Below, one piece after another: positions 2,069 through 11,821 of a DNA stretch of 13,763 nucleotides. The stretch comes from a virus (Duplodnaviria; Heunggongvirae; Uroviricota; Caudoviricetes). The translations under genes and the position numbers were made by a program. Numbering within the stretch: the stretch's first letter is position 1; every line of letters starts with the position of its first letter. The stretch lies in the IMG/VR virus record IMGVR_UViG_2537562217_000016; one strand, given 5' to 3'. The notes beneath the pieces were generated by a model, which worked only from the letters and a program-made list of their open reading frames with translations, had not been told where the DNA came from and did not search any database.

Positions 2069-2833
2069 ATGAAAATGCAGACATTACCCATCGTGCCGTG
2101 GATTGGTGGCAAACGCCGCCTTGCAAAACACATTCTGCCGCTGTTTCCGGCGCATGAATGTTATGTGGAGCCGTTTTGTGGGGCAGCAGCGCTCTATTTT
2201 CTTAAGACACCCGGCAAGATCGAAGTCATCAATGATATCAACGGTGAACTGGTGAATCTGTACCGGGTGGTAAAGCATCACCTGGAAGAATTTGTCCGCC
2301 AGTTCAAATGGGCGCTGGTCAGCCGTCAGATCTACAAATGGCTGCAGATCACCCCGGAAGAAACACTGACGGATATCCAGCGTGCGGCACGGTTCTACTA
2401 CCTTCAGAAGCAGGCGTTTGGCGGCAAGGTGGCAGAGCACAGCTTCGGTACCTCCACCACATCCCCGCCACGCTTCAACCTGCTACGTATTGAAGAAGAA
2501 CTGTCAGCGGCACACCTGCGGCTTTCCAGAACAGTCATAGAACACATGGACTGGCAACAGTGCATTGAGCGTTATGATCGTCCGCACACGCTGTTCTACT
2601 GCGACCCACCGTACCTGGGTACGGAAGGCTATGGTGTGGATTTTCCTGAAGGGAACTACTCGCGGCTGGCAGAGCTGGCCCGGTGCATCAGAGGAAAAAT
2701 GATAATTTCGGTGAACGACATCCCGCAGATGCGCGAGGTGTTCACTGGACTGAACATACAGACAGTGAATATCAACTACAGTCTGGCGGGTAAACCCACG
2801 CCGCGCCGTGAACTGCTAATCTGCAACTTCTGA
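2069..2833 (+). CDS. Dam-family (D12 class) N6-adenine DNA methyltransferase, orphan
   Basis: N-terminal AdoMet-binding region PWIGGKRRL...EPFCGAAALYF and catalytic DPPY motif (LFYCDPPYLGTEGY); overall resemblance to Dam. Start chosen at ATG 2069 (RBS AAAAGG 2053..2058) rather than the longer track ORF from 1979. No adjacent restriction endonuclease candidate. Confidence 0.85.
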   Translation: MKMQTLPIVPWIGGKRRLAKHILPLFPAHECYVEPFCGAAALYFLKTPGKIEVINDINGELVNLYRVVKHHLEEFVRQFKWALVSRQIYKWLQITPEETLTDIQRAARFYYLQKQAFGGKVAEHSFGTSTTSPPRFNLLRIEEELSAAHLRLSRTVIEHMDWQQCIERYDRPHTLFYCDPPYLGTEGYGVDFPEGNYSRLAELARCIRGKMIISVNDIPQMREVFTGLNIQTVNINYSLAGKPTPRRELLICNF

Positions 2834-2840
2834 AACAAAA

Positions 2841-2863
2841 CCGGAAAGCACAATGCTTTCCGG
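2841..2863 (-). terminator. Rho-independent terminator for the leftward repressor transcript
   Basis: Perfect 10-bp stem ccggaaagca / tgctttccgg with a 3-nt loop, followed on the minus strand by TTTTGTTTCA (2840..2831). About 85 bp downstream of the repressor stop and abutting the dam stop. Confidence 0.55.
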
Positions 2864-2949
2864 TAAACCAAACAACTTCCACTATGTCACTGGCGATGTT
2901 TTCTGAAAGCATCCAGATCAACCACCTGTCCTTTGTGTCCGGGTCAGTA

Positions 2950-3306
2950 TCAGCCTGCGATTTTTCCTGGTTTTGGCTGAGTATAGAATCGCCCAATCTC
3001 AAGAAATGAGCGTTGTTGGTCTGGTGTCATGTCGTCAAAAGTATCTATTAGTTTTTGTTTTTCTGGGGAAATTTGATTCTGGTTTCTAGTCATACCATCT
3101 GTGCTCATTCCAGTGAGCAACCAATTTACATCAACATTAAACTCTTGATGCATCTTTAACAGAAACTCCCCTCCAGGCATCGCCTTTCCATTTTCAATCT
3201 GACTGATACCACCATTAGAAATACCTAAACGAGCTGCAAATTCTCTCTGGTTCAACCCTGCTTTCTTCCTCACAGAAATAACGCGCTCTCCTATATCTTT
3301 GCTCAT
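2950..3306 (-). CDS. Phage repressor, XRE/Cro-CI family HTH
   Basis: HTH_3 signature LNQREFAARLGISNGGISQIENGKAMP near the N-terminus; divergent from the early operon; operator half-site overlaps its start codon. Confidence 0.8.
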   Translation of the reverse strand: MSKDIGERVISVRKKAGLNQREFAARLGISNGGISQIENGKAMPGGEFLLKMHQEFNVDVNWLLTGMSTDGMTRNQNQISPEKQKLIDTFDDMTPDQQRSFLEIGRFYTQPKPGKIAG

Positions 3307-3329
3307 AAAAGTGAATCTCTATCTTGATA

Positions 3330-3347
3330 TGCTCATAATTATGAGCA
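3330..3347. promoter_or_regulatory. Operator: perfect 18-bp palindrome TGCTCATAATTATGAGCA within a candidate early promoter
   Basis: Read directly. It fills the spacer between candidate -35 TTGATA (3324..3329) and -10 ATAATC (3348..3353); a third copy of the half-site TGCTCATAA sits at 3300..3308 over the repressor start codon. Confidence 0.5.
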
Positions 3348-3399
3348 ATAATCTAACACATATAAGGCAAACATCATTGCATCAACAAAGGAGACAACG

Positions 3400-3588
3400 A
3401 TGACTGCAGAACAAGTCAAAGCTCTCTTCCGCCAGCGCGGGATCACTTTCACCCGCTGGGCAGAAGAAAACGGCTACAACCGCAATGAGGTATACCGCGT
3501 TCTCAACGGGCAGACCAAAGCCCGTTACGGTAAATCCCATGAAATCGCCGTGAAGTTGGGACTGAAATCAACAGCTCAGGCGGCCTAA
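3400..3588 (+). CDS. ner: Ner-like small DNA-binding protein (winged HTH, Ner/Nlp-type), first gene of early operon
   Basis: RBS AGGAG 3389..3393, ATG 3400. 62 aa with HTH and a C-terminal GKSHEIAVKLGL resembling the Ner/Nlp GE.IIAKALG motif; position equivalent to Mu ner. Confidence 0.6.
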   Translation: MTAEQVKALFRQRGITFTRWAEENGYNRNEVYRVLNGQTKARYGKSHEIAVKLGLKSTAQAA

Positions 3589-3640
3589 ATATTTTGAGTC
3601 TTTGTAAAAGGTTATCACATATCGCAAAAGAGGTATGCAG

Positions 3641-3949
3641 ATGAGTAAGACGAATGTTTCAAGCTCCGGCAGTCGCATCCTCCGGGTACTCAAAGCGCTG
3701 CGCGGTCATGCCCTGAACGGTATTTCTAACGGTGAACTGGCGACAGCACTGCACGAGTCACCGGCAAACATCAACCGGGCACTCAACACCCTCATTGAAG
3801 AAGGGCTGGCTCTGAAACTGGAGAACGGACGTTTTGCACCGGGCATCCAGTTACTGCAGATCGCCATGGCCCACAGTAACGAGATGGCACGTGCACAGGA
3901 TCGTATTAACGAAATTAACCAACGTGTCATTTCAGGTAGTCGTTTGTAA
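3641..3949 (+). CDS. Winged-helix DNA-binding protein (MarR/IclR-like HTH), hypothetical regulator
   Basis: RBS AAAAGAGG 3626..3633 favours ATG 3641 over ATG 3635. Motif GISNGELATALHESPANINRALNTLIEEGL is typical of a wHTH recognition helix. Confidence 0.6.
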   Translation: MSKTNVSSSGSRILRVLKALRGHALNGISNGELATALHESPANINRALNTLIEEGLALKLENGRFAPGIQLLQIAMAHSNEMARAQDRINEINQRVISGSRL

Positions 3950-3959
3950 GGAGTAATCA

Positions 3960-4880
3960 ATGGGACGTACCAAATCACCGATTAACACTGAACTGAACGC
4001 CGATGTACCGCTGTCGGATGATCTCAACGTCAGCCTGAATGCCATGACACAGCATCGCATGGAGATCATGCAGCAGTTTGGTGATGGACTGCCTTATGAA
4101 CGTGAACGCATCGTTCACGAAGCACGTTTTTATATGGCGCAGAGTGCTGAATCTATGTTGGAAGCGGGTAAGCGGCTGATCATCTTAAAAGAAAATGAAC
4201 CGCATGGTGATTTCACAAATATTCTGGAAAACGACCTCGGATTAGCACCACAGGTAGCTCGTCGCATGATGCAGGCCAGCGTGAAATTTCTCGGCAATGG
4301 AGATGAACAGCCAAAACGCTCAGCGCTGAGCGTTTTGGGAAAAACCAAGTTATATGAACTGATGGTTCTGGATGACGAAGAACTCGACGCATTAGCTGAT
4401 GGTGGAACCGTCGCCGGTGCAACGCTTGATGATATTGATCGCATGACCAGCCGCGAACTGAAGGCCGCCCTGCGTGAAGCGCGCGAAACCAACGCAGCTC
4501 AGCAACAGGTGCTTGCCGGAAAGGACGAAAAAATCAACGAACTGGCCACAAAACTGGAGAAGAAATCGCGCCTGCAACCTCCGCCGCCAGACGAAGAACT
4601 GAAAAAATTGCGGGCGGAAGTGACGGCATTAGCGGTTGAGGCCGAATCGGCTATCGCCGTCCGGCTGTCCAGTGTTTTTGAGACCCTGTGTGAATACTGC
4701 ACCAAAAACATGATCGATACCCCCAGAGATTTCATGGCCGGTCTGGTCTGCCAGATTGAACGCAGTGTTCATGCATTACGTGAGACGTTTGACCTTGAGG
4801 CCGCTCCATCGGGTAACGATGCCCCCGCCTGGCTGACCGAACCGGAACCTGAAATCAACCGACCGGAGGATATGCAGTAA
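3960..4880 (+). CDS. Hypothetical protein with DUF3102-like N-terminal region and central coiled coil (306 aa)
   Basis: RBS TAAGGAG 3948..3954, ATG 3960. Coiled-coil-like segment ETNAAQQQVLAGKDEKINELATKLEKK...LKKLRAEVTALAVEAE; the DUF3102 resemblance is recalled, not searched. Confidence 0.65.
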   Translation: MGRTKSPINTELNADVPLSDDLNVSLNAMTQHRMEIMQQFGDGLPYERERIVHEARFYMAQSAESMLEAGKRLIILKENEPHGDFTNILENDLGLAPQVARRMMQASVKFLGNGDEQPKRSALSVLGKTKLYELMVLDDEELDALADGGTVAGATLDDIDRMTSRELKAALREARETNAAQQQVLAGKDEKINELATKLEKKSRLQPPPPDEELKKLRAEVTALAVEAESAIAVRLSSVFETLCEYCTKNMIDTPRDFMAGLVCQIERSVHALRETFDLEAAPSGNDAPAWLTEPEPEINRPEDMQ

Positions 4881-5197
4881 TGAATACGAATAACACACAA
4901 AATACCCTGATGGACAGCCCGGAGGCACTGGGGCACGCACTGTGTAATCTGCTGCCGGAGATGGTGCAGGGTTTCCGCGTGGTGACCCCTTCCGGTGAAA
5001 TCTGCGTACCCGCACAGGAGACGCACCCGTTTGTACTGACGATGGAGGTGATGCTGATGCAGCAGATAAGACGTCTGCAGAATCAGTCAGCATTACGCCC
5101 GGTAGTTGCACCGCAACCGGTAAATACCGTGGTGAAAACCTGCGATGGCGAAACACTGTGCGACCTCGCCAGAAAAATTGCCGCCAGAATCGGATAA
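4880..5197 (+). CDS. Hypothetical protein (105 aa)
   Basis: Start ATG overlaps the upstream stop (TAATG at 4878..4882), indicating translational coupling; no recognisable motif. Confidence 0.5.
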   Translation: MNTNNTQNTLMDSPEALGHALCNLLPEMVQGFRVVTPSGEICVPAQETHPFVLTMEVMLMQQIRRLQNQSALRPVVAPQPVNTVVKTCDGETLCDLARKIAARIG

Positions 5198-5212
5198 CAG
5201 GGAAGACAAGCT

Positions 5213-6982
5213 ATGACCCCGGCACTGACTGAAAAACTGGTTGAAACAGCCCGCGCGGCACGTGACGCGGGGCATGGTAAACGCGGTGCAATATACGACG
5301 CTGCCTGTGCTGAACTTGGCATGTCCCGCGCCACTCTGCTGCGCAGGCTGAAGGAGGTATCTGTGACTGATAAACGCAAAAAACGCGCCGATGCCGGGCG
5401 CAGCGCCCTGACCCGCGACGAAGCCGCGCTGATATCTGCCACACTGCGTGAGGCCACCCGCAAGAACGGTAAGCGTCTCTATTCCATCGCAGATGCAGTG
5501 GAAACCCTGCGGGCTAACGGCTTTATCACCGCAGGCAGAACAGATGAAACCACCGGTGAGTTTTTCCCGTTGTCTGAAGATGCCATCAGCCGTGCTCTGC
5601 GTAACTATGGCCTGCACCCGGAACAACTGGATGCCCCTGCACCACATACCGAAGTGGCCAGTCTGCATCCCAATCATGTCTGGCAGATTGACGCCTCACT
5701 CTGCACGCTTTACTACCTGAGCAATGGACATAAAGGGCTGCAGGTGATGGACAGCGCGAAGTTCTACAAGAACAAGCCCGCTAACCTTGCCCGTATCGCC
5801 AGTGACCGCGTGTGGAGTTACGAGATTACCGACCATGCCAGCGGCTGGATTTACGTTGAGTATGTGACGGGCGCGGAATCAGGTGAGAACCTGTGTTCTG
5901 TGCTTATCAACGCCATGCAGGAGCGTGGCGGCGCAGACGTGCTGCACGGCGTGCCGAAAATACTCTATCTCGACCCCGGCTCGGCAAACACCGCGGGTAT
6001 GACGAAAAACATGTGCCGCTCACTGGGCATCGACCTGATAGCGCACAAGCCGCATAACGCCCGCGCCACCGGACAGGTGGAAAAGGCGCGTGACATTATC
6101 GAACGCAAGCTGGAGCCGGGTCTGAAGTTCCGGCCGGTTCACAGTCTGGAAGAACTCAACGCGCTGGCCGCGAAATGGCGCAGCCACTTTAACGCCACGG
6201 CTGTTCACAGCCGCCACGGTAAAACCCGCACGGATATCTGGCTGAAGATTACTGCTGAGCAGCTGAAAAAAGCGCCTTCCGTTGAGGTATGTCGTGAACT
6301 GGCTGTGGCGGCACCAGAACTCCGCAAAGTCACGCCAAAACTTCGTGTCTCGTTCCGGGGCACTGAATTTGACGTATCAACGGTACCGGGCGTACTGGTT
6401 GGTGAAAAACTGATGATTACCCGTAACCCATGGCGCAGCGATGTGGCACAGGTGGTTCTGACCGGTGAGGACGGCCACGAGACGTTCTTCCTGGTCGAAG
6501 AGGTCAGAAAGAACAAGTTTGGCTTTGCTGAAGGCGCGGCGGTATTTGGCGAAAGTTACAAAGCCCTGCCGGAAACCCCGGCACAGATGGCGGCAAAAGA
6601 AACCGAAGCGCTGGTTACCGGTACAGACAACGCCGCAGATGCAGCCGCCGCACGCAAGGCGAAGGCGCTGCCGTTCGGCGGGCGGCTTGACCCGTATAAA
6701 CATATCGACGACACCACACTTCCGGCCTATATGCCGAAGCGTGGTCAGGCCTCTGACGTACGCGGGCCGCGCACTGAACAACGTCCCATGACTCATGTGG
6801 AGGCCGCGAAAGCCCTGCGCGATAAGTTCAGCGCCGACGGCCTTACCTGGACGCCGGAACATTACCGCCAGTTAACGGCACAGTACCCGGACGGCGTACC
6901 GGAAGCCGCACTGGATGAAGTCATGGCCACGCTGACCACACCGGCCCGCAGCAGTGTTATCAGCATTGTTAACGGCAACTGA
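5213..6982 (+). CDS. DDE transposase of transposable phage (TnsB/Tn552/TniA-type DD(35)E core; MuA analogue)
   Basis: Catalytic triad read from the translation: D160 (HVWQIDAS, codon 5690..5692), D254 (ILYLDPGS, 5972..5974), E290 (ATGQVEKAR, 6080..6082), i.e. D-93-D-35-E. Basic N-terminal DNA-binding region. Position between ner and the ATPase. Confidence 0.85.
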   Translation: MTPALTEKLVETARAARDAGHGKRGAIYDAACAELGMSRATLLRRLKEVSVTDKRKKRADAGRSALTRDEAALISATLREATRKNGKRLYSIADAVETLRANGFITAGRTDETTGEFFPLSEDAISRALRNYGLHPEQLDAPAPHTEVASLHPNHVWQIDASLCTLYYLSNGHKGLQVMDSAKFYKNKPANLARIASDRVWSYEITDHASGWIYVEYVTGAESGENLCSVLINAMQERGGADVLHGVPKILYLDPGSANTAGMTKNMCRSLGIDLIAHKPHNARATGQVEKARDIIERKLEPGLKFRPVHSLEELNALAAKWRSHFNATAVHSRHGKTRTDIWLKITAEQLKKAPSVEVCRELAVAAPELRKVTPKLRVSFRGTEFDVSTVPGVLVGEKLMITRNPWRSDVAQVVLTGEDGHETFFLVEEVRKNKFGFAEGAAVFGESYKALPETPAQMAAKETEALVTGTDNAADAAAARKAKALPFGGRLDPYKHIDDTTLPAYMPKRGQASDVRGPRTEQRPMTHVEAAKALRDKFSADGLTWTPEHYRQLTAQYPDGVPEAALDEVMATLTTPARSSVISIVNGN

Positions 6983-6992
6983 GGAGGGAAAC

Positions 6993-8159
6993 ATGCTGGT
7001 ACTGAAGCAGCAACTGAAAGAGGCCCGTATTCCACAGGCGGTGGTGGCGAGAGCTGTCGATGTTTCTGAGGCCACGCTGGCCCAGATTGTGAATCATAAC
7101 GCGTGGCCCCGCACCAGCCCCGGAGAAGTGCGCCGGCGTCTTGCGTCCTGGCTGGAAAGTCAGGGGATTGATACAACGAAGAGTTTTGATGCTGTACAGG
7201 GCGCGGCCACGCCCCGTACAGCGGGTACCACAGATAAAACGAGCCTCAGTGAGGAAGAGAATATGTTACTCAAAAAACAGGTGTTATTTCCAGCAACCAA
7301 AAAAGCGTTTGGTCTTTTCCGTGACCCGTTCGCCGACGAAGCCATGCAGGGTTCTGATGATGTGTTCACCACCCCGGATATTCGCTACGTGCGTGAGGCG
7401 TTGTACCAGACAGCCCGTCATGGTGGGTTTATGGCCGTCATCGGTGAGTCCGGTGCGGGTAAATCCACGCTGCGCCGCGACCTGACTGAACGTATCAACC
7501 GCGAGAATGCGCCGGTAATTGTTATCGAGCCATACATCATCGCTATGGAAGACAACGATGTGAAAGGGAAAACCCTGAAGGCAGCAGCGATTGCCGAAGC
7601 CATTATCAGTACCATCGCACCACTGGAAAGCATCAGACGCAGTCAGGACGCCCGCTTTCGCCAGTTGCATCGCGTCCTGAAAGACAGCAGCCAGGCGGGG
7701 TTCAGCCACGTTCTGGTGATTGAGGAGGCCCACAGTCTGCCCATTCCGACACTGAAACACCTCAAACGCTTTTTTGAGCTGGAGTCCGGTTTCAAAAAAC
7801 TGCTGTCCATCGTGCTGATTGGCCAGCCGGAACTGGCGACAAAACTGTCTGAACGCAATATGGAAGTCCGTGAAGTCGTTCAGCGCTGTGAGGTGGTCGA
7901 ACTTCTGCCTCTGGACAATAACCTTGAAGAGTTTCTGACGTTCAAACTGCAACGGGCCGGTAAACAACTGACGGACATTATGGACGCCAGCGCAGTGGAT
8001 GCCATACGTGCCCGCCTGAGCAATCCGGGAAGTCATCGTAAAAATATGGTCAGCCTGCTGTATCCGCTGGCCGTCAGTAACCTGGTAATAGCCGCCATGA
8101 ATCTGGCCGCTGAAATCGGGGTTCCACAGGTCAACGCTGACGTTGTCAAAGGGGTTTAA
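6993..8159 (+). CDS. Transposition-associated AAA+ ATPase (MuB/TniB/TnsC analogue) with N-terminal HTH extension
   Basis: RBS GAGGAGGG 6981..6988, ATG 6993, 10 nt after the transposase stop. Walker A GESGAGKST (~7441..7470), Walker B HVLVIEEAH; N-terminal HTH-like ARAVDVSEATLAQIVNHN. Confidence 0.8.
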   Translation: MLVLKQQLKEARIPQAVVARAVDVSEATLAQIVNHNAWPRTSPGEVRRRLASWLESQGIDTTKSFDAVQGAATPRTAGTTDKTSLSEEENMLLKKQVLFPATKKAFGLFRDPFADEAMQGSDDVFTTPDIRYVREALYQTARHGGFMAVIGESGAGKSTLRRDLTERINRENAPVIVIEPYIIAMEDNDVKGKTLKAAAIAEAIISTIAPLESIRRSQDARFRQLHRVLKDSSQAGFSHVLVIEEAHSLPIPTLKHLKRFFELESGFKKLLSIVLIGQPELATKLSERNMEVREVVQRCEVVELLPLDNNLEEFLTFKLQRAGKQLTDIMDASAVDAIRARLSNPGSHRKNMVSLLYPLAVSNLVIAAMNLAAEIGVPQVNADVVKGV

Positions 8160-11416: not shown

Positions 11417-11821
11417 ATGAAATCATTAACCGCAGTGCGTAAAAAAAGCCCTAATTATCCCGTTGAGTTCAAAATCAAAATGGTGGAACTCTCGCATCGA
11501 CCAGAGATCTCCGTAGCGCAACTCGCTCGTGAGCATGGGATCAACGATAATTTGCTGTTCAAGTGGCGCCAGTACTGGCGCGAAGGAAAACTACGTCCTC
11601 CTTCAACAACAGAAAACAACGTGCCTGAGCTGCTCCCGATAACACTTGATGCCGAAGATGTTGTCCCTACAACCTCCCCCCGGTCACAACCTGTAGCTGC
11701 TGCGACACCTGAATCACTCAATATCAGCTGTGAAGTGACGTTCCGGCACGGATCACTCCGTCTGAATGGTGCCATCAGCGAAAATATCCTGAACCTGCTG
11801 ATACGGGAGCTCAAACGTTGA
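11417..11821 (+). CDS. tnpA: IS66-family accessory protein TnpA (orfA)
   Basis: 134 aa with HTH region ISVAQLAREHGINDNLLFKWRQYW; first ORF of the IS66 module. Confidence 0.85.
   Translation: MKSLTAVRKKSPNYPVEFKIKMVELSHRPEISVAQLAREHGINDNLLFKWRQYWREGKLRPPSTTENNVPELLPITLDAEDVVPTTSPRSQPVAAATPESLNISCEVTFRHGSLRLNGAISENILNLLIRELKR

What the first reader, a model, noticed from the sequence alone, without database searches (positions are those of the whole stretch)
3300..3353. Perfect 18-bp palindromic operator with a third half-site over the repressor start codon
TGCTCATAATTATGAGCA (3330..3347) is a perfect palindrome placed exactly between a candidate -35 (TTGATA) and -10 (ATAATC) of the rightward early promoter. 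The same half-site TGCTCATAA recurs at 3300..3308, overlapping the repressor's own ATG. This predicts repression of the early (transposase) operon together with repressor autoregulation.
Basis: seen in the sequence. Interest (0 to 1): 0.45.

Follow-up and report, generated by a model that had tools for sequence, protein, structure and literature searches.

The report
Prophage repressor operators at early promoter
The 18-bp palindrome is very probably the main binding site through which a Mu-like E. coli prophage's repressor shuts off its transposase operon, an ordinary phage switch design in an uncharacterised but very common prophage.

Summary
TGCTCATAA recurs at 3300-3308 over the repressor start codon.

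The window is 100% identical to Escherichia phage PhiKM, a BcepMu-like transposable phage, and occurs as a prophage in about 390 complete E. coli genomes.

Comparison with about 150 related loci supports an operator:
- Each immunity type carries a different dyad in the same spacer. 46% of 67 spacers have at least 7 complementary pairs, against 0.6% of shuffles.
- The dyad changes with the repressor's HTH domain, not with the conserved first early protein gp16.
- A second site lies about 30 bp upstream in 10 of 33 immunity groups.

It is conserved at 227-228 bp in all type-A lineages, including at synonymous positions.

Repression of the early operon is well supported. Autoregulation follows from geometry only. 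Nothing here is experimental. This is a new member of a textbook kind, of modest interest.

The parts
3330..3347 (.). O1: primary operator, perfect 18-bp dyad TGCTCA-TAATTA-TGAGCA filling the spacer of the early promoter
   Evidence: Arms are invariant and the centre is variable in type-A relatives. Relatives carry other dyads at the same position.
3300..3317 (.). O2: degenerate second operator TGCTCA-TAAAAG-TGAATC, 30 bp upstream of O1. Its left arm overlaps the repressor start codon (CAT 3304-3306).
   Evidence: 3 mismatches. TGCTCAT and TGAAT are conserved in all type-A lineages, although codon 3 changes from K to I. A site at offset -28 to -34 occurs in 10 of 33 immunity groups against 0.33 in controls.
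3102..3119 (.). O3: distal operator TGCTCA-TTCCAG-TGAGCA inside the repressor gene (codons L63-T69, LLTGMST), 228 bp from O1 and 198 bp from O2
   Evidence: exact. Conserved at 227-228 bp in five type-A sequences examined, with a variable centre. Four of its 5 degenerate codons have an invariant third base, against 10 of 48 gene-wide. A heteroimmune phage encodes the same peptide without the dyad. It marks the left edge of type-A DNA homology.
3324..3329 (+). -35 hexamer TTGATA of the early promoter Pe (predicted)
   Evidence: A -35-like hexamer sits at the equivalent position in relatives.
3347..3352 (+). -10 hexamer AATAAT of Pe (predicted). The transcription start is expected near 3359-3360.
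   Evidence: 17-bp spacer, 10/12. (A/C/T)ATAAT lies 44-47 nt before the gp16 ATG in most enterobacterial relatives, and 37-60 nt across the selected promoters. Homology between heteroimmune phages begins exactly here, at 3347/3348.
2950..3306 (-). Immunity repressor, 118 aa: N-terminal XRE/HTH_3 domain (about residues 1-66) plus a C-terminal domain of about 45 aa with no known family
   Evidence: HTH_3, E 4.6e-15; 434 repressor, E 3e-8; P22 c2; RefSeq WP_000031013.1; C-terminus has no family.
3353..3399 (+). Conserved leader of the early transcript, containing AAACATCATTGCATCA (3369-3384) and the gp16 Shine-Dalgarno GGAG (3390-3393). Candidate site for the conserved gp16/Ner-like protein.
   Evidence: the motif is conserved from E. 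coli to Pseudomonas and Xanthomonad relatives, across all immunity types.
3400..3588 (+). First early gene, 62-aa BcepMu_gp16-family small HTH protein (called 'ner-like' in B3-type phages)
   Evidence: TIGR04111, 97.4 bits against cut-off 34; phrog_925; annotated 'Ner-like antirepressor' in phage Bise.
3635..8159 (+). Rest of the early operon: wHTH protein (3635-3949), DUF3102 protein (3960-4880), ORF 4880-5197, DDE transposase (5213-6982), MuB-like AAA+ ATPase (6993-8159). Gam and other genes follow.
   Evidence: The genes are tightly packed on one strand, and no convincing terminator lies between them.

Best explanation
O1 (3330-3347) is the primary operator of the prophage's 118-aa XRE-type repressor. 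A repressor dimer places one 434-like HTH on each TGCTCA arm. Because the site fills the whole 17-bp spacer between the -35 and -10 of Pe, bound repressor excludes RNA polymerase. This keeps the gp16-wHTH-DUF3102-transposase-MuB operon silent in the lysogen and confers immunity.

O2 (3300-3317) is a weaker site three helical turns upstream. It covers the repressor's own start codon and the short untranslated stretch before it. It is probably filled cooperatively, or at higher repressor concentration, and limits repressor synthesis.

O3 (3102-3119), inside the repressor gene, is probably an auxiliary site. It could stabilise occupancy by DNA looping and/or act as a roadblock.

What is shown: the sites, their positions relative to a predicted promoter, their conservation, and their module-specific variation. 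What is inferred: binding, cooperativity, looping, and the sign of autoregulation.
For: 1. Anatomy. A perfect dyad fills the spacer of the only promoter-like site in 2800-5300.

2. The repressor's N-terminal domain is homologous to the operator-binding domains of 434 cI and P22 c2.

3. Family-wide rule. Among 67 distinct gp16-proximal promoter spacers, the mean is 6.1 complementary pairs against 3.7 in shuffles. 46% have at least 7 pairs, against 0.6% of shuffles.

4. Specificity.
- Spacer identity rises from 0.33 to 0.91 as repressor N-terminal identity rises from below 35% to above 90%.
- The window and L003 encode the identical gp16 (WP_000123378.1), yet their spacers are unrelated (35% identity) and their repressor N-terminal domains are 27% identical.
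- The wHTH protein WP_000047758.1 is identical in L003 and L005, which carry different dyads.
- Between the window and L003, the only coding sequence in the non-homologous block (2981-3347) is the repressor gene.

5. Within type A (E. coli, Symbiopectobacterium, Serratia and metagenomic lineages), the arms of O1, the left arm and TGAAT of O2, and both arms of O3 are invariant. The centres, flanks and most synonymous sites vary.

6. A second site at -28 to -34 occurs in 10 of 33 independent immunity groups, against 0.33 (maximum 2) in control offset windows.

7. Distal operator-like sites inside or near the repressor gene recur in other types: L008 at -259, L170/L186 at -249/-250, L112/L114 and L064 at about -191.

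8. In the B3-like relative Fc02, a temperature-sensitive repressor derepresses pE upstream of the ner-like gene (PMC9936078).
Against: - There is no binding, footprint or transcript-start data for this phage. Pe is a consensus match only.
- Covariation of spacer and repressor is partly expected from physical linkage alone, because the mosaic junction lies at the -10. The argument therefore rests on the combination of dyad symmetry, repeated copies and arm-specific conservation.
- No leftward promoter reaching 9/12 was found, so the autoregulation mechanism is undefined.
- O2 matches only 9 of 12 arm positions.
- Across the family, only 10 of 33 groups show a clear -30 site.
- Distal sites other than type A's are near background. 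About 16 hits at 10/12 or better were seen, against roughly 5 expected.
- Phages with a different repressor type use the same TGCTCA/TGAGCA arms, so arms do not map one-to-one to repressor families.
Confidence: 0.8

Rival explanations
1. Only O1 is functional. O2 and O3 are by-products: O2's left arm is forced by the Met-Ser start of the gene, and O3 by the LLTGMS peptide. In this reading there is no operator-mediated autoregulation or looping.
For: O2 has only 9 of 12 arm matches. GCTCAT is simply ATG-AGC read backwards. O3 lies in the conserved LLTG motif that ends the HTH domain. Two-thirds of immunity groups show no clear -30 site.
Against: - The T before GCTCAT is kept although codon 3 changes from Lys to Ile. 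The non-coding right arm TGAAT is invariant in all type-A lineages.
- In O3, 4 of 5 degenerate codons keep their third base, against 21% gene-wide.
- L131 encodes LTGMSTD without the dyad.
- The O1-O3 distance is fixed at 227-228 bp.
- The -30 offset is enriched about 30-fold over control offsets.
Confidence: 0.2
2. The palindrome is bound by another phage regulator, either the gp16/Ner-like protein (as lambda Cro shares operators with cI) or the wHTH protein, rather than by the divergent repressor.
For: gp16 is a small HTH protein made from this very promoter. Cro-type proteins commonly bind the same operators as the repressor.
Against: gp16 is 100% identical in phages with unrelated palindromes (window and L003). 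The wHTH protein is identical in L003 and L005, which carry different palindromes. Neither protein can read module-specific sequences. A family-wide conserved motif in the leader is a better candidate for the gp16 target.
Confidence: 0.05
3. The dyad matters as a nucleic-acid structure, not as a protein site: an RNA hairpin in the leader of a leftward repressor transcript, or a DNA cruciform. Symmetry would be maintained by compensatory change.
For: The 28-nt segment folds at -8.2 kcal/mol, z = -3.3. Symmetry is kept with different sequences in different phages.
Against: - The extra copies (O2, and many -30 sites in relatives) repeat the arm sequence without being self-complementary.
- Within type A the arms are invariant rather than compensating.
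- The element lies upstream of the predicted early start, so it is absent from the early RNA.
- The longer leftward RNA fold is not better than shuffles (z = -1.0).
- There is no Rfam match.
Confidence: 0.04
4. It is a chance palindrome in an AT-rich promoter region.
For: 5.4% of shuffled windows contain a perfect palindrome of 18 bp or more. The intergenic region is 32% GC.
Against: There is a second exact 12/12 arm match 228 bp away, with about 0.001 expected. It is conserved across genera. The dyad rule at the same position holds across the family.
Confidence: 0.01

Closest known systems
434 cI / P22 c2 / lambda cI immunity regions (OR operators between divergent repressor and early genes)
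   Same: - The repressor's DNA-binding domain is homologous to 434 cI and P22 c2.
- The operator is a dyad of 14-18 bp with an AT-rich centre, overlapping the early promoter.
- The repressor gene is divergent.
- There are neighbouring sites of graded quality, the weakest over the repressor's own start. This resembles the OR3/PRM logic (established knowledge of the lambdoid switch).
- A distal site that could loop recalls OL-OR.
   Different: - The protein is 118 aa, with no S24 autocleavage domain, so induction cannot work by RecA-stimulated self-cleavage.
- The first early protein does not covary with the operators, so it is not a Cro that shares them.
- The operator lies wholly inside the spacer.
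- The distal site is inside the repressor's coding sequence.
Phage Mu c repressor / Ner with operators O1-O3 controlling Pe and Pc
   Same: It is a transposable phage. A repressor gene lies divergent from an early operon that begins with a small HTH protein and continues to transposase A and ATPase B. There are three operator sites, one associated with the repressor's own expression (established knowledge of Mu).
   Different: Mu's repressor has a MuA-like winged-helix domain and binds arrays of non-dyad repeats. Here the repressor is an XRE HTH with 18-bp dyads. gp16 matches the Ner-type family HTH_35 only weakly (E 0.003, below cut-off).
B3-like Pseudomonas phages (B3, Fc02): repc / pE / ner-like
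   Same: They share the gp16/ner-like first early gene and a short intergenic region with pE. My survey finds a GGTnnnn-N-nnnnACC-type dyad in the pE spacer of these phages too. In Fc02, a temperature-sensitive repressor derepresses pE (PMC9936078).
   Different: No operator is defined in that paper. There, the lysogenic repressor transcript comes from a distal promoter, pC1, antisense to the early genes. No equivalent promoter was detected here.
CTXphi RstR and Qin prophage DicA (short XRE repressors without a cleavage domain)
   Same: These give the best NCBIfam similarities, both below cut-off: RstR E 2.8e-10 and DicA E 5.6e-10. They are short HTH repressors of divergent promoters, with heteroimmune variants that carry matching operator changes (established knowledge for RstR).
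   Different: Scores are far below the family cut-offs, so this protein is not a member. The phage types and operator sequences are unrelated.

Membership tests
XRE (HTH_3) phage immunity repressor with dyad operators, 434/P22 type | N-terminal HTH_3 domain homologous to 434 cI / P22 c2 DNA-binding domains | tested here: met
   Pfam HTH_3 at E 4.6e-15, 55.8 bits against cut-off 23. PDB 434 repressor at E 3.3e-8 and P22 c2 at E 1.4e-5.
XRE (HTH_3) phage immunity repressor with dyad operators, 434/P22 type | Dyad-symmetric operator of 14-18 bp overlapping the core of the early promoter | tested here: met
   An 18-bp perfect dyad fills the 17-bp spacer of the 10/12 promoter match. The promoter is predicted, not mapped.
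XRE (HTH_3) phage immunity repressor with dyad operators, 434/P22 type | Several neighbouring operators positioned for cooperative binding | tested here: inconclusive
   O2 lies 30 bp away and O3 228 bp away. The -30 site is enriched family-wide. Cooperativity itself cannot be tested with these tools.
XRE (HTH_3) phage immunity repressor with dyad operators, 434/P22 type | Physical, sequence-specific binding of the repressor to the operator | not testable with these tools
   Needs EMSA, footprinting or ChIP.
Lambda cI / LexA-like cleavable repressors | C-terminal S24 peptidase domain for RecA-stimulated self-cleavage | tested here: not met
   The protein is 118 aa with no Peptidase_S24 hit. 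The C-terminal 54 aa match no Pfam or PDB family.
Lambda-type cI/Cro bistable switch | The first early protein (Cro) binds the same operators as the repressor | tested here: not met
   gp16 is identical in phages with unrelated operators. This is an indirect test by covariation.
Mu-type immunity (Rep + Ner, O1-O3) | Repressor DNA-binding domain of the MuA/Mu-repressor winged-helix type | tested here: not met
   Only XRE-type HTH families match.
Mu-type immunity (Rep + Ner, O1-O3) | Early operon with Ner-like protein, DDE transposase and AAA+ target-DNA activator | tested here: inconclusive
   The transposase (rve; phrog_310) and the ATPase (AAA_22; phrog_296) are present. gp16 matches HTH_35 only at E 0.003, below cut-off.
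BcepMu/B3-like transposable phage early region | BcepMu_gp16-family protein as the first gene after the divergent repressor | tested here: met
   TIGR04111 at 97.4 bits against cut-off 34. The window is 100% identical to phage PhiKM, classified as Bcepmuvirus.
BcepMu/B3-like transposable phage early region | Repressor inactivation derepresses the promoter upstream of the gp16/ner-like gene | not testable with these tools
   Shown for the relative Fc02 by RNA-seq of a temperature-sensitive repressor lysogen (PMC9936078). Not done for this phage.

The most novel reading that the evidence does not exclude
The repressor may work through a three-operator loop. O1 in the promoter spacer, and O2 over its own start codon, would be bridged to O3, which is written into synonymous positions of the repressor's own coding sequence 198-228 bp away. 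The cassette bounded by O3 and O1 (3102-3347: HTH domain plus operators) would be the unit exchanged between heteroimmune phages, since the homology breakpoints fall exactly at these sites. If so, the gp16-led phages offer more than 30 natural, predictable, mutually orthogonal repressor/operator pairs built on one promoter scaffold.
Probability: 0.35. Interest if true: 0.5.

Novelty: new member of a known kind. Interest (0 to 1): 0.3.

Why it matters
This prophage sits in about 7% of complete E. coli genomes (391 of 5,426), including strains labelled O25b:H4-ST131 and many human clinical isolates. Its switch has not been described. The deposited phage record does not even annotate the repressor gene.

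Knowing the operators gives direct handles for testing what induces this transposable prophage. The repressor has no self-cleavage domain, so the inducing signal is unknown. The operators also allow construction of derepressed or cured derivatives.

The family-wide rule (a dyad in the spacer, with a second site 30 bp upstream) allows operator prediction for dozens of uncharacterised immunity types. It could also supply orthogonal repressor/promoter pairs.

Conceptually, this is a textbook design and would not surprise a phage geneticist.

Tried and rejected
- **Leftward promoter.** The consensus scans of 2800-3800 and 3300-5300 found no minus-strand site at 9/12 or better. By eye, the best candidates are a CATAAT inside O1 and a GAGATT 7 nt before the ATG, which would give a leaderless mRNA. 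Both have poor -35 elements, so Pc remains unassigned.
- **RNA structure.** The O1 hairpin alone folds well (z = -3.3). The 66-nt leftward leader, in which an O1 arm could pair with the start-codon half-site, is no better than shuffles (z = -1.0). The fold of the early leader pairs CAUC with the gp16 start region (z = -2.7). By my reading of the leaders, the distant relatives lack that complementarity, so I did not pursue it.
- **Known RNAs.** There are no Rfam or tRNA matches in the window.
- **Host-factor boxes.** By inspection, the sequence fits neither the LexA box (CTGT-N8-ACAG) nor the Fur 7-1-7 motif. A host site also would not change with immunity type.
- **Other operator copies in the phage.** There are no further exact sites in the 34.7 kb. 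Four sites with 1-2 mismatches are close to the background of about 1.25.
- **C-terminal domain of the repressor.** It has no Pfam or PDB relative. I did not model the structure, because a monomer model would not settle the oligomeric state.
- **Literature.** I found no paper defining operators for BcepMu-like phages or describing PhiKM. The original B3 and BcepMu genome papers are not in the held library, so a prior description there cannot be excluded.

Full report
**What the window is**

Bases 2700-4200 are 100% identical to Escherichia phage PhiKM (PQ738613, genus Bcepmuvirus, from a uropathogenic E. coli). The 661-bp immunity region (2940-3600) is at least 99% identical in 391 of 5,426 complete E. 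coli genomes. Records labelled O25b:H4-ST131 are among them.

The gene content is that of a Mu-like transposable phage.
- A 118-aa XRE/HTH_3 protein is encoded on the minus strand at 2950-3306.
- On the plus strand, tightly packed, are: a 62-aa BcepMu_gp16-family HTH protein (3400-3588), a winged-HTH protein (3635-3949), a DUF3102 protein (3960-4880), a small ORF (4880-5197), a DDE transposase (5213-6982), a MuB-like AAA+ ATPase (6993-8159), then Gam and others.

**Checking the observation**

The sequence is as described.
- TGCTCATAATTATGAGCA at 3330-3347 is a perfect 18-bp palindrome.
- TGCTCATAA recurs at 3300-3308, with its CAT being the repressor start codon.
- TTGATA is at 3324-3329.

The consensus scan pairs TTGATA with AATAAT at 3347-3352, a 17-bp spacer and 10 of 12 matches. 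This is the only promoter-like site on either strand between 2800 and 5300.

The palindrome alone is weak evidence, because 5.4% of dinucleotide shuffles contain one of 18 bp or more. The arm pattern TGCTCA-N6-TGAGCA, however, occurs exactly twice in the window (3330 and 3102) and twice in the whole 34.7-kb phage. About 0.001 is expected per window.

The site at 3300 extends to a full but degenerate 18-mer, TGCTCATAAAAGTGAATC, with 9 of 12 arm positions. I call the three sites O1 (3330-3347), O2 (3300-3317) and O3 (3102-3119). O3 lies inside the repressor gene, across codons LLTGMST.

**Heteroimmune relatives**

E. coli genomes carry relatives in which the right side of the region is conserved and the left side is replaced. 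The conserved part is the -10, a 47-nt leader, and gp16 onward.

Homology between the window and L003, L005, L006 and L008 begins at 3347/3348, which is the last base of O1 and the first of the -10; with L007 it begins at 3339, inside O1. Each replacement brings a different repressor N-terminal domain and a different dyad in the same spacer:
- L005: TATCCCATTTTTGGGATA
- L007: TGTCTAATTTTTTAGACA
- L008: GTTGAAAATTTTCTAC
- L003: GTGAG-N4-TCTGCAC, present twice
- L006: GAGAACAATAGTTCTC

**Family survey**

I used a gp16 alignment to fetch 144 further loci from genomes and viral contigs. I located the best promoter 37-60 nt upstream of each gp16 start.

Among 67 distinct spacers, the number of complementary pairs averages 6.1, against 3.7 in composition-matched shuffles. 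46% have at least 7 pairs, against 0.6% of shuffles.

The rule holds from Enterobacterales to Pseudomonas, Burkholderiales and Pasteurellaceae. An example is TTGACA-GGTACTCATTTGAGTAC-CATCAT. A dyad filling the spacer of the early promoter is therefore a design feature of this phage family.

**Which protein reads the dyad**

Spacer identity follows the identity of the repressor's N-terminal domain. It is 0.33 for pairs below 35% identity, 0.76 for 70-90%, and 0.91 above 90%. The same holds among pairs whose gp16 proteins are at least 85% identical.

The window and L003 encode the very same gp16 (WP_000123378.1), yet their spacers are unrelated. L003 and L005 share an identical wHTH protein (WP_000047758.1), yet their dyads differ. 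Neither conserved regulator can therefore be the specific reader.

Between the window and L003, the only gene in the non-homologous block (2981-3347) is the repressor.

One caveat applies. Spacer and repressor are adjacent, so linkage alone would make them covary. The functional inference rests on covariation combined with dyad symmetry, repeated copies of the same arms, and arm-specific conservation.

The repressor's N-terminal domain is homologous to the operator-binding domains of 434 cI and P22 c2, which bind dyads of comparable size (established knowledge).

**Conservation within type A**

Five diverged type-A lineages were found: E. coli, Symbiopectobacterium L010, L098, L106/L111, and Serratia L020/L125. 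They share about 80% DNA identity from 3099-3102 rightward.

- In O1 the arms are invariant, while the centre varies: TAATTA, AAATAA, TTATTG.
- In O2, TGCTCAT and the non-coding TGAAT are invariant, although codon 3 changes from Lys to Ile.
- O3 is present in every lineage at 227-228 bp from O1, with invariant arms and a variable centre.

In the first 70 codons, only 10 of 48 codons with an invariant degenerate amino acid also keep their third base. Four of the five such codons inside O3 do. Against the remaining background of 6 of 43, this gives roughly p = 0.002 by my binomial estimate.

The heteroimmune phage L131 encodes the same LTGMSTD peptide as ATT CTT ACG GGT ATG AGC. That lacks the right arm. 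O3 is therefore not forced by the protein sequence.

The left edge of type-A homology falls at O3. The right edge of immunity-specific sequence falls at O1. The HTH domain plus its operators thus behaves as a cassette.

**The second and third sites elsewhere in the family**

I scanned each locus with the arms of its own O1. Sites matching at least 10 of 12 positions cluster at offsets -29 to -34: L003 group, L006, L008, L012, L021, L023, L051, L055, L056, L131, L146, L147 and L152.

I grouped loci into 33 immunity groups by repressor similarity. Ten groups have a site of at least 9/12 within -34 to -28. Control windows of the same width average 0.33 groups, with a maximum of 2. The window's O2 sits at -30.

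Distal sites are less general. Type A's is at -228 (12/12), L008's at -259, and L112/L114 and L064 have one near -191. An unrelated repressor group that uses the same TGCTCA arms has an exact site at -249/-250. Apart from type A, these are not far above background.

**How it most likely works**

A repressor dimer on O1 occupies the DNA between the -35 and -10. It excludes RNA polymerase from Pe and so silences the whole early operon, including the transposase. This step is well supported by comparison. It is also supported by the behaviour of the B3-like relative Fc02, where a temperature-sensitive repressor derepresses pE upstream of the ner-like gene (PMC9936078).

O2 lies 30 bp away, close to three helical turns. 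It covers the repressor's start codon and the 11 bp before it.

Any leftward transcript must either start between 3307 and 3347, with its promoter under O1/O2, or start further right and pass both sites. Occupancy must therefore affect repressor expression. Negative autoregulation at high repressor level is the simplest reading.

The leftward promoter could not be found. There is also no clear Shine-Dalgarno before the repressor ATG, here or in several relatives, which would be compatible with a leaderless mRNA (my inspection). This step is inference.

O3 could stabilise the complex by looping. Its distances of 198 and 228 bp from O2 and O1 are near-integral numbers of turns at 10.4 bp per turn. 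It could also act as a roadblock. This is conjecture, supported only by conservation.

**Rivals**

- Binding by gp16 or by the wHTH protein is excluded by the identity and covariation argument above.
- A structural RNA or cruciform role is unlikely. The extra copies repeat the arms without being self-complementary. The arms are invariant within type A rather than compensating. O1 lies upstream of the predicted early start. The leftward leader fold is not significant, and there is no Rfam match.
- Chance is excluded.
- The live alternative is that only O1 is functional.

**Comparison with known systems**

In working principle, this is a 434/P22/lambda-type switch placed in a Mu-like transposable phage. 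It is not a lambda-cI-family member in the full sense. It has no S24 cleavage domain, and the first early protein does not share the operators.

It is not Mu-type either, because the repressor fold and operator form differ.

gp16 is conserved across immunity types. So is a leader motif, AAACATC(A/T)TTGCATCA, at 3369-3384. This suggests gp16 acts at its own conserved site, in the manner of Ner.

I found no publication defining these operators.

**Verdict**

This is a new member of a known kind, of modest interest.

Noticed in passing
window 4311-4338: A perfect 28-bp palindrome, CCAAAACGCTCAGCGCTGAGCGTTTTGG, lies inside the DUF3102 gene (peptide PKRSALSVLG), about 925 bp after the gp16 start. 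At the equivalent place, 37 of 85 related loci carry a 24-28-bp near-perfect palindrome, in 27 sequence variants. Inner arm positions show 2-3 different Watson-Crick pair types with 22 of 22 variants paired. The outer CAAA[AT]G and the central RCGY are conserved. This looks like a selected cis element: the DUF3102 protein's own site, a transposition enhancer, or a hairpin. It may be more unusual than the assigned finding.
   Followed up: partly
window 3369-3384 (leader 3353-3399): The motif AAACATC(A/T)TTGCATCA, just before the gp16 ribosome-binding site, is conserved across all immunity types and out to Pseudomonas and Xanthomonad relatives. It is a candidate binding site for the conserved gp16/Ner-like protein, or part of the repressor promoter.
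   Followed up: partly
PQ738613.1 29342-29731 (window 2950-3306): The GenBank record of phage PhiKM does not annotate the repressor gene. It lists only a 41-aa ORF on the opposite strand. RefSeq prophage annotations do have the gene (WP_000031013.1).
   Followed up: yes
window 2950-3095 (repressor residues about 71-118): The C-terminal 45 aa or so (SPEKQKL..D.M.P(D/E)Q.R..LE.G....QPKP.K) are shared by repressors with unrelated HTH domains (L003, L005, L008, type A). They match no Pfam or PDB family. With no cleavage domain present, this shared module may be the oligomerisation surface or the target of a common inducer or antirepressor.
   Followed up: partly
L156, L161, L163, L164, L170, L186: Other phages, whose repressor resembles the L007 type rather than type A and which lack the conserved leader motif, also place TGCTCA-AAAT(A/T)T-TGAGCA between a -35 and AATAAT. 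One has an 11/12 site at -30, and two have an exact site at -249/-250. The same arms and the same architecture therefore occur with a different repressor family.
   Followed up: partly
window 2739-2756: TGTTCACTGGACTGAACA is a dyad with perfect arms that differs from the operator by one symmetric change per arm. It lies at the 3' end of the Dam-like methylase gene, 591 bp from O1. Its conservation was not examined.
   Followed up: no
window 11566-11581: A perfect 16-bp GC-rich palindrome, GCGCCAGTACTGGCGC.
   Followed up: no
window 3307-3320 and relatives: There is no recognisable Shine-Dalgarno sequence before the repressor ATG, here or in L003 and L008. This is compatible with a leaderless repressor mRNA, as for lambda cI from PRM.
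   Followed up: no
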